Assembly: GCA_951406725.2 (NCBI GenBank) | Contig: OX597814.1 | Location: forward strand, 155,744,001 to 155,808,000 | Length of the DNA stretch: 64,000 nucleotides | From: Octopus vulgaris | Lineage: Eukaryota | Reading direction: 5' to 3' | Shown: one piece after another, positions 33,151 to 37,366 of the stretch | How positions within the stretch are numbered: position 1 is the stretch's first letter | How the letters are laid out: each line of letters opens with the position of its first letter | Notes under the pieces: model-generated | Seen by the model: only the letters and a program-made list of their open reading frames with translations | Told to the model about the DNA's origin: nothing | The model's database searches: none | Made by a program: the position numbers and the translations under genes

Positions 33151-33889
33151 TTTTTCCAGTTACAGCATTTTAGCGGGGAAGAATGCAATTCATGTTTGCA
33201 ATTCATGAAGAATGCAATTCATGTTTGCGTGCCTTTGAAGGTTTCTTATATTTTTACTCTTAGAGAGTAAGTTAGATTCCGTCTCACTAAATATTTTTGT
33301 AATCAGTTTGCATGCAAATGTTAGAAGTTTTAACTCCAATTGTTCGTATTTTTGAGGGCTTACTGTACTGAGGATAGAGAGAGGGAGAAGAAACAATAAC
33401 AATATATTTGGTTGCAGATCGAAGTGGCTGCTATCCCACCATTCATTCACATCATCACTCACACTACTGGTTGCTGCTCTTAGGAGGATAACAAATCTCG
33501 TCTCGCTTTCAGGAGCAAAAGTCAACGATAAGAGCTTACATTGGATACAACAGATAGTACCAGCCCATCATCTCACAGTAATTAGTAGGTGAGGGAAAGA
33601 GGGCGAGGGCGCCAGAGTGTTGAAGTAAAAGAAACGACAATGAATTCAATATCAAAATTAGTAGAAATATAAGCAGACTCTTGTCTTCGAATAGACCCTT
33701 TGAAATATTTATAAAATTGGAAGTAATCTTTCTACTGTGTGTTACAAGCATGTAAATTGTATACTATGTCTTCATGAGCCTTTTAATCGTAGCAGCTAAG
33801 GCAGCTGGTACAATTAATAGTTGTCGTGACTTCAGTAGCCTTTCGTGAGAAATAAAATATTATTTTAAATAAGCCATGTTGCCATGTTG

Positions 33890-34145
33890 CATCCCCAAAG
33901 TCCATCCCCTCTTCAACGTGGTGGGGACGCTGGCAACGGGTAGTGTCAGAGCTATGCCGTCGGGAACTTCGGTTCCTGGTAGGGCCACCCAAGCCGGATT
34001 GGTCTGACACCGAGTGGTATTAGGGCCACAACCCGGCAGACGGGGTTCTGGTGAAAATCTTCGGAGTGCCTGTTTCGAAGGTGGTGGAAGAAGTCGACTC
34101 AACCCGCCCAGGGTGAATGTCGCCACAAGTACAAGTAAATACAAG
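33890..34145 (+). mobile_element. Short non-autonomous RTE-derived element (5'UTR-like structured head + ACAAGT tail)
   Basis: GAGCTATGCCG..GGTAGGGCCACCCAAGCCGGA..GGTC resembles RTE/BovB/Expander 5'UTRs as I recall them. Ends in acaagtacaagtaaatacaag. Confidence 0.65.
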
Positions 34146-36389: not shown

Positions 36390-37366
36390 AGAACTAGTCT
36401 GAATTACTTGAAGATCTTCCAAATTTGATCAAATCTGTTGCTAATATGATAGTGTTGACAATATGCAGAATTGATCCTCTTGATGAGGATGCTTCTACTG
36501 AAAAATTTCTGGATCCTAAACCGCATTTAGGCTACAGGTTCGAGAGAAAGATAGCAGAAATGATTATCAAGAAGACTTTAACAGCCAATGAAGAAAAAAA
36601 CATTCGCAAAAGAGCACAACAATTTTCTCCCTGCCTTTATAAATAGCTCAAGTATCGTTTGCCAGGAAATATTAATATTCTGAGGAATATCAAATGTTTT
36701 TAAGTAGAGAATATTTTGCAGTATTTCAAAGAGCCAATTTTACCAGTCTTATAAGCAATGAATTTAAATGAAGAAAAAATTGCTTCAGTTGAAAAGCATT
36801 CAATGAGTTAAATTGACTAATACATTTAATACTTAGGCATTCTGGCTAGAAGTCTTGGAATATAAAGATGCTACTGGAGGAAATCCTTTTAGAGATGTTT
36901 CAAAATTTGCCATCAATCTATTGACAATGCCAAACCCAAATGCAGAAGTTGAACGGTTTTTCAGTTGTATGGGTGTAATCAAATGAAAACTGAAAACAAA
37001 ATGCATCTTTATATGCTTAGATCAATACTGTCTATAAAATATTGTCTGAAAAGATATGGCAAATGTTGCAAAAACTTAAATATTCCAAAACACATAATTA
37101 ACAAGATTGGGACCTTGAATGTATAGAGTCAAGTCCTAGGCACTGCAGCTGAAAGTGAGCAAATCAGCGAAATTCAAATCATTTCTCAATGCTGAATATA
37201 ATTAAAGAAAATAAATAAAAATGTAAATGAAAATTAAACTTTTAGATATAATTAGTGTTTAGCATTTTGTTTTATCATATTTAGCATTTTAGCATTTTTT
37301 AGCAATGTTTTGGTATTTTTCTACTGAAATTTAGCAGAAAATTCTGATCTTAAGTTGGCAACACTG
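36390..37366 (+). mobile_element. hAT transposon 3' remnant (dimerisation domain + right TIR)
   Basis: FWLEVLEYKDATGGNPF..LLTMPNPNAEVERFFSCMGVIK. Terminus agttggcaacactg (CAGTGTTGCCAAC-type TIR). Subterminal ttagca repeats. Confidence 0.8.

What the first reader, a model, noticed from the sequence alone, without database searches (positions are those of the whole stretch)
33890..34145. Compact, possibly pseudoknotted RNA at the 5' end of a mini RTE-like element: candidate unclassified ribozyme
Seen: a GC-rich island with an 8-bp helix GTGTCAGA(33943-50)/TCTGACAC(34003-10), an inner hairpin GGGAAC-TTCG-GTTCCT (UUCG tetraloop), CCG/CGG pairing, a potential pseudoknot CCAC(33985-88)/GTGG(34014-17), an upstream TCCCC/GGGGA hairpin and an ACAAGT-repeat tail. 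From memory, the unpaired GAGCTATG and TAGGGCCACCCA segments recur in vertebrate RTE (BovB/Expander) 5'UTRs with different helix sequences, implying covariation. Other RTEs use HDV-like or twister ribozymes at this position, but I cannot fit this fold to HHR, HDV or twister. It may be an uncharacterised self-cleaving or RT-recruiting RNA.
Basis: partly seen in the sequence, partly recalled or inferred. Interest (0 to 1): 0.7.

Follow-up and report, generated by a model that had tools for sequence, protein, structure and literature searches.

The report
Delta-type ribozyme heading mini RTE retrotransposon

Summary
Window 33889-~34140 is one further-deleted copy of a ~330-400-nt repeat (450 exact 23-mer matches) made of the two ends of a 3.4-kb RTE-like LINE in the same genome. 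Positions 33889-34051 fit an HDV-like nested double pseudoknot: P1 33889-96/33923-30, L3 with U20 and G25, P1.1 CA/UG, and a C-N-R-A strand whose predicted catalytic C is 34037. Three subfamilies in this genome and 11 metagenome relatives keep the pairings through compensatory changes (19 of 26 pairs). Most full-length copies start at the predicted cut site. Rfam misses this RNA and its textbook-like relatives alike. HDV-like ribozymes at RTE 5' ends are published, and the scan found ribozyme-headed mini RTEs before in other genomes. Cleavage is untested, P2 and P3 are weak in this family, and this copy has mutations in P1 and P3. What remains open is the role of the deeply conserved P4 domain.

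The parts
33889..34140 (+). One copy of a bipartite non-autonomous RTE-like retroposon (subfamily A), with an extra deletion of about 130 nt; 3' end uncertain by a few bases; no target-site duplication found
33889..33896 (+). P1 5' strand. G33889 is the predicted +1 (cut predicted 5' of it). G33891A makes one A-C mismatch in this copy
33897..33909 (+). J1/2 and P2 5' strand (core CCCC 33906-09; possible extension CCA 33902-04)
   Evidence: duplex -8.9 kcal/mol, against -12 to -15 in five relatives
33910..33922 (+). P3 (33910-12/33920-22) and 7-nt L3 (33913-19) with U20, C21, A22, G25. First P3 pair is U-U in the family; C33912T turns the closing pair into U-G in this copy
33923..33932 (+). P1 3' strand (33923-30) and P1.1 3' strand TG (33931-32), facing CA 33914-15
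33937..34035 (+).
34036..34041 (+). J4/2 strand; C34037 is the predicted catalytic cytosine (C75 equivalent), A34040 the conserved A78 equivalent
   Evidence: (MAFFT column 161)
34042..34051 (+). P2 3' strand (GGGG 34042-45; possible extension TGG 34049-51)
34075..34077 (+). Deletion junction (3-nt overlap) between the RTE 5' part and the RTE 3' part; unique to this copy among 46 mapped loci
34078..34140 (+). RTE 3' end (end of ORF/3' UTR) and ACAAGT-type tandem tail

Best explanation
[quoted passage not shown] Shown: the element's structure, its full-length partner, the conserved and covarying pairings, and 5' junctions at the predicted cut site. Inferred from established HDV-family chemistry: C34037 acts as the catalytic cytosine with Mg2+, leaving a compact 5'-OH RNA. 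Inferred from LINE biology: the partner's endonuclease/RT primes on the ACAAGT tail and copies the RNA back to that end. Odds: fold assignment about 0.9; the family's source elements cleaved about 0.75; this copy still cleaves well about 0.25.
For: Element: 450 exact matches to a 23-mer against 0 for the reversed control. Full-length partner L265 has the same 5' end, RT (Pfam RVT_1 E 1e-34), tail and flanking duplication; L267 has the APE endonuclease. Fold: the majority sequences of subfamilies A, B and C each parse as HDV-like, and 0 of 40 flank shuffles each reach their score. The three have different P1 sequences that still pair. J4/2 reads CAGA, CCAA, CUAA, so C75, R77 and A78 stay fixed while position 76 varies. 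C75 is kept in 38 of 39 A, 11 of 13 B and 7 of 8 C copies in which the strand could be located. In a 15-row MAFFT alignment not fitted to the structure, 19 of 26 pairs change on both sides (shuffle mean 10.6, 0 of 500) and slid controls fall to 34-49% paired against 87%. P1.1 nt22/nt38 is Watson-Crick in 14 of 15 rows, as A-U or G-C; own P1 and P2 partners beat swapped partners (0 of 20000 permutations). 5' ends: of 19 A copies with a detectable duplication (out of 34 with a P1 strand, 43 examined), 16 end at +0 to +3 of the predicted +1; all 8 such B copies end at +0 to +5. In the score-unbiased set, 11 of 17 independent copies begin at P1, 6 begin inside it or later, and none shares sequence upstream (read by eye). 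Precedent: RTE is among the clades with 5' self-cleaving ribozymes, cleaving at the 5' junction (PMC5786205; PMC3774820).
Against: No cleavage data. In this genome's three subfamilies P2 is only 4 bp plus 3 bp after an internal loop and is invariant, so it has no covariation support of its own. The first P3 pair is U-U, subfamily A has an 8-nt P1 strand, and subfamily C has a mismatch at the top of P1. Nearest-neighbour folding does not favour the HDV core (P1 pair probability 0.28 for the A majority, 0.06 for this copy; the method cannot score pseudoknots). This copy has an A-C mismatch in P1, only one Watson-Crick pair left in P3, and a broken P4 pair. A strict descriptor parsed only 15 of 60 single metagenome copies (shuffles 28 of 600), 19 of 35 A, 5 of 10 B and 1 of 6 C copies. 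At family level 6 of 19 metagenome clusters beat all shuffles, 5 gave weak parses and 8 none. Rows are related by descent, so the shuffle counts are not probabilities; the 15 aligned rows were picked by me as the more intact ones. Sharp 5' ends could also come from an internal promoter, as in L1Tc. T is enriched at -1 (24 of 34 A copies) and is unexplained.
Confidence: 0.85

Rival explanations
1. The HDV-like fold is an inherited relic in this lineage. It no longer cuts, and the sharp 5' end is set by an internal promoter or by the RT stopping at a stable 5' structure.
For: Short split P2, U-U in P3 and irregular P1 in this genome's subfamilies. L1Tc carries a promoter and a ribozyme in the same 77 nt, and some well-folded SIDER ribozymes were inactive (PMC4035085). 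No intact ORF was seen in the six partner loci examined.
Against: C75, R77, A78, U20, G25 and the P1.1 pair are kept across three diverged subfamilies while neighbouring positions change, and P1 was rewritten with pairing kept. Active R2 ribozymes tolerate P1, P2 and P3 mismatches (PMC3774820).
Confidence: 0.1
2. The P4 core (33943-34010) is itself a new or rearranged ribozyme, for example a twister-like fold.
For: It is the most conserved part across RTE families and has a surface likeness to twister L2/P4/L4 as tabulated in PMC8501958. Perere-3, an RTE, uses twister variants.
Against: The base that would form twister T2 covaries with the local helix instead (columns 83/118) and is G in this family. 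There is no UAA cleavage loop or GAGGG strand outside the helix in this family. Element 5' ends map to P1, about 55 nt upstream of the core. The core survives in a tRNA-headed SINE (SINE2-1_EC). Rfam gives no twister or hammerhead hit at E<=10.
Confidence: 0.04
3. Chance GC-rich pairing in a repeat, with no conserved RNA structure.
For: The 161-nt region has an unremarkable folding energy (z -0.23).
Against: Compensatory changes in every helix tested across families.
Confidence: 0.01

Closest known systems
HDV-like ribozymes at the 5' ends of non-LTR retrotransposons (RTE, R2, R4, LOA, Ingi/L1Tc; Ruminski et al. 2011, not held, seen only as cited in PMC5786205, PMC3774820, PMC6765202)
   Same: Position at the element's first base; P1/P2/P3/P1.1/P4 order; L3 U and G; J4/2 C and A; 5' junctions at the predicted cut site
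   Different: P4 is about 100 nt with a deeply conserved loop and junction core. This genome's families have a 4+3-bp P2, a U-U first pair in P3 and (subfamily A) an 8-nt P1. I could not check whether Ruminski et al. list this RTE subtype.
Bipartite non-autonomous RTE elements (Bov-A, RTESINE2, WALLSI3, RTE-N families; Kojima 2018, PMC5786205)
   Same: 5' and 3' ends of an RTE joined by internal deletion, no ORF, tandem-repeat tail, retained 5' end
   Different: This copy has lost a further ~130 nt and shows no target-site duplication. That paper discusses no structure for the 5' region in the passages and sections I read.
L1Tc/NARTc/SIDER Pr77 ribozymes of trypanosomatids (PMC4035085)
   Same: Ribozyme kept in internally deleted derivatives; +1 can be C, as in subfamily B and most relatives here
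   Different: Compact (77-96 nt), different LINE clade, doubles as a promoter
Twister variants at the 5' end of Perere-3 (RTE clade; PMC8501958)
   Same: Same job and position in an RTE element; surface likeness of the P4 core to twister L2/P4/L4
   Different: Different ribozyme class; the twister T2, UAA loop and GAGGG strand are not present here

Membership tests
HDV-like ribozyme | Nested double pseudoknot in the order P1, P2, P3, L3, P1', P1.1, P4, J4/2, P2' (PMC4908430) | tested here: met
HDV-like ribozyme | Catalytic C and conserved A in J4/2 (C-N-R-A; numbering recalled) | tested here: met
   C34037/A34040; CAGA, CCAA, CUAA in subfamilies A, B, C; C in 14 of 15 aligned rows, A in 15 of 15
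HDV-like ribozyme | L3 with the conserved U and G that form a reverse wobble (PMC3774820) | tested here: met
   T33913 and G33918; invariant in 15 of 15 rows
HDV-like ribozyme | P1.1 of one or two pairs | tested here: met
   CA/UG in A, B and C; nt22/nt38 Watson-Crick in 14 of 15 rows with A-U/G-C exchange
HDV-like ribozyme | P1 of 6-7 bp starting at the cut site | tested here: inconclusive
   A: 8 possible pairs (7 in this copy); B: 7; C: 6 plus a mismatch; covaries; 5' junctions map to +1
HDV-like ribozyme | P3 of 3 bp | tested here: inconclusive
   Full in relatives; U-U first pair in this genome's families; further U-G in this copy
HDV-like ribozyme | P2 of at least ~5 bp | tested here: inconclusive
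   8-9 pairs with covariation in relatives; 4+3 bp and invariant in this genome's families
HDV-like ribozyme | Mg2+-dependent self-cleavage 5' of +1 | not testable with these tools
   Only indirect, from 5' junctions
Bipartite non-autonomous RTE | 5' and 3' ends shared with an autonomous LINE, middle deleted | tested here: met
   46 of 47 A loci map to both ends of the 3.4-kb L265
Bipartite non-autonomous RTE | Partner encodes APE endonuclease and RT in a short (~3.3 kb) element | tested here: met
   Broken frames with Exo_endo_phos (L267) and RVT_1 (L265, L268)
Bipartite non-autonomous RTE | RT falls in the RTE clade by phylogeny | not tested
   No reference set on hand; the assignment rests on the 5' motif shared with Repbase RTE/BovB entries, the length and the tail
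Bipartite non-autonomous RTE | Tandem-repeat tail and target-site duplication | tested here: inconclusive
   Tail present. Duplication found for 19 of 34 A copies but not for this copy
Twister ribozyme | T1 and T2 pseudoknots, UAA cleavage loop, GAGGG strand (PMC8501958) | tested here: not met
Any Rfam family | Covariance-model match | tested here: not met
   No hit over the element at E<=10; also none relevant for 12 relatives, so the test is insensitive here

The most novel reading that the evidence does not exclude
A large branch of RTE/BovB retrotransposons carries a two-module 5' RNA: an HDV-like ribozyme that Rfam misses, with a separate, deeply conserved structured domain built into its P4 arm. 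That domain (internal loop plus hairpin junction, on a kink-turn-like base in 12 of 18 relative families) is the signal by which the RTE protein or a host L7Ae-type protein recognises the RNA. This would explain why mini RTEs and many SINEs keep the RTE 5' end.
Probability: 0.3. Interest if true: 0.6.

Novelty: new member of a known kind. Interest (0 to 1): 0.3.

Why it matters
As a ribozyme in an RTE 5' end it is a further example of a published arrangement, so it does not open a new class. It shows that a Rfam-negative result says nothing for large-P4 HDV-like ribozymes. It also gives a concrete structure model, with a predicted catalytic base and cut site, for a 5' UTR shared by many RTE/BovB families. 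If the conserved P4 domain is the protein-recognition signal, it would answer the open question of why RTE so often spawns bipartite elements (PMC5786205). It would also bear on RTE-based gene-insertion tools, whose UTRs have been optimised empirically (PMC13708176).

Tried and rejected
Rfam scans of the window, 8 copies and 12 relatives: nothing relevant. Twister-like reading of the core: rejected. Viral contigs: 22 pattern hits, none kept the flanking helix, treated as chance. Of 107 metagenome hits, 36 failed the helix filter (a few are truncated or mutated true members) and 2 more were dropped as chance before clustering. The genome-wide RVT_1 search returned mostly a CR1-like family and did not find the partner; a protein search from L207 did. 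The idea that the 5' segment after the ribozyme pairs specifically with the 3' end was not supported: 37 of 628, 67 of 549 and 22 of 547 internal windows paired better in three long copies. RNA evidence: no RNA holder listed, and only assembled contigs were offered, which cannot show RNA ends, so no reads were laid. Host gene context: no Pfam hit at E<=0.001 in 14 window ORFs, so the transcription unit is unknown. Longer flanks for the metagenome loci could not be obtained, so their link to an RTE ORF is inferred from the shared motif. Ruminski et al. 2011 and one HDV review id were not held. Paper search was uninformative.

Full report
Observation. The 68-nt core folds better than shuffles (z -2.85); the wider 161 nt do not (z -0.23). 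Rfam gives nothing over the element at E<=10.

The element. The window lies in a 2.8-Gb genome (G000). The region has 1649 first-look candidates and 450 exact matches to a 23-mer, against 0 for the reversed control. Typical copies are about 330-400 nt; this one lacks a further ~130 nt. A protein search from a copy that runs into an endonuclease frame found decayed long partners. L265 is about 3.4 kb with the same 5' end, an RT, the same tail and a flanking duplication. 46 of 47 subfamily A loci map to both ends of L265; their 5' parts end at about 300-330, except this copy at 180. This is a bipartite non-autonomous element. RTE assignment rests on the length, the APE+RT frame, the tail, and the 5' motif shared with BovB, AviRTE and other RTE entries in the supplement of PMC5786205; no tree was built.

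The fold. After dropping 2 as chance, 69 fell into 19 clusters. The well-preserved clusters show an HDV-like layout around the motif: 7-bp P1, 8-9-bp P2, 3-bp P3, 7-nt L3, and C-N-R-A before P2'. The same layout fits this genome's three subfamilies A (this copy), B and C. By eye it also fits the start of the Afrotherian RTE1-N1_LA sequence printed in the supplement. In window coordinates: P1 33889-96/33923-30, P2 33906-09/34042-45, P3 33910-12/33920-22, L3 33913-19, P1.1 33914-15/33931-32, P4 33937-34035, C75 equivalent 34037.

Tests of the fold. MAFFT, given no structure, put 34037 in the column of the relatives' J4/2 C and P2' in register. On that 15-row alignment 87% of cells pair and 19 of 26 pairs change on both sides; 0 of 500 shuffles reach this, and slid controls give 34-49% (one measure, further pair types, was not above shuffles). 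P1 was out of register in the alignment and was tested separately: own partners 6.0 Watson-Crick pairs against 4.9 swapped, P2 5.9 against 3.7, 0 of 20000 permutations each; P1.1 exchanges A-U and G-C in 14 of 15 rows. The rows are related and were chosen as the more intact ones, so these counts are not probabilities. Flank shuffles of the A, B and C majority sequences never reached the observed descriptor score (0 of 40 each). Against this: single old copies parse poorly (15 of 60 metagenome copies), 8 of 19 clusters gave no parse and 5 a weak one, and P2 in this genome's families is short and invariant.

Cut site. Shared sequence among copies stops at P1. Of 19 A copies with a detectable duplication, 7 end exactly before +1, 9 overlap the first 1-3 bases and 3 end 1-3 bases earlier; all 8 B copies end at +0 to +5. 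Loci L002-L030 were top-scoring hits and are biased to full length. In the genome-order set, 11 of 17 independent copies start at P1 and 6 are truncated (by eye, five segmental duplicates counted once). This matches cleavage at +1 but does not prove it.

This copy. Against the family majority it differs at 33891 (P1), 33912 (P3 closing pair), 33916 (L3), 33994 (P4) and 34046. The predicted catalytic C is intact, but P3 keeps one Watson-Crick pair, so activity is likely poor.

Mechanism. RTE elements are described as lacking their own promoters and being released from co-transcripts by ribozymes (PMC6765202). The cut maps to the first P1 base (PMC4908430). I infer that the same holds here, followed by target-primed reverse transcription by the partner's protein from the tail. 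The P4 arm is variable or absent in R2 ribozymes (PMC3774820), so its strong conservation here points to another job. RNP recognition is my preferred guess, translation initiation the alternative; neither is tested. In 12 of 18 relative clusters the base of P4 has kink-turn-like geometry (motif recalled from my own knowledge; shuffles 395 of 3600). This genome's families have a side hairpin there instead.

Known or new. HDV-like ribozymes at RTE 5' ends and bipartite RTEs are published (PMC5786205; PMC3774820). I found no description of this P4 domain or of a k-turn in it in searches (0 papers) and 71, but the key paper (Ruminski 2011) and its supplement could not be read. The scan's earlier notes report ribozyme-headed mini RTEs in other genomes; a sequence look-up found none for this stretch.

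What I saw of each paper. PMC5786205: passages, parts 2-3 of 5, a supplement search and part 6 of 15. PMC8501958: abstract, introduction, section 17. PMC4908430: part 1 of 4. PMC3774820, PMC4035085, PMC6765202, PMC10085705, PMC13708176: passages. PMC6007223: abstract only. Ruminski 2011: nothing (cited second-hand). HDV nucleotide numbering is recalled.

Verdict. A real, conserved RNA, but a new member of a known kind in its known setting. Interest 0.3; the residual interest lies in the P4 domain.

Noticed in passing
Metagenome clusters, e.g. L119, L046, L106, L125, L085 (base of P4): Kink-turn-like geometry (helix, 3-nt bulge, G-A/A-G or A-U pairs) in 12 of 18 clusters against 11% of shuffles; absent from this genome's subfamilies. 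No paper held all of k-turn, HDV-like and retrotransposon.
   Followed up: partly
L056, L063, L065, L091: A relative family with an extra hairpin inserted in L3 of the HDV-like core.
   Followed up: no
Subfamily A deletion junctions (e.g. L004, L005, L009): Several junction types bring a CTTCTTC in the 5' part next to a complementary GAAGAAG in the 3' part; the 5' breakpoints cluster within ~30 nt, near the ORF start. The window's own junction also closes a ~10-bp hairpin at 34058-83.
   Followed up: partly
L008, L026, L214, L230, L244, L271, L280: Tandem partial duplications of the element's first 10-60 bases at the 5' junction, as expected from repeated template jumps.
   Followed up: no
L256-L263: A young, intact RTE-like family (ORF about 1095 aa) in the same genome whose 5' UTR did not match the P4 core pattern; its 5' end was not folded.
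   Followed up: no
L160: A lone, diverged copy of another family with the P4 core but no recognisable HDV 5' half.
   Followed up: no
Supplement of PMC5786205, SINE2-1_EC: This tRNA-headed horse SINE appears by eye to keep most of the HDV-like layout behind its head, although the paper argues that a ribozyme there would truncate a SINE.
   Followed up: no
window 36398-36646 (+): An 82-aa open frame that reads like a protein exon; no Pfam hit.
   Followed up: partly
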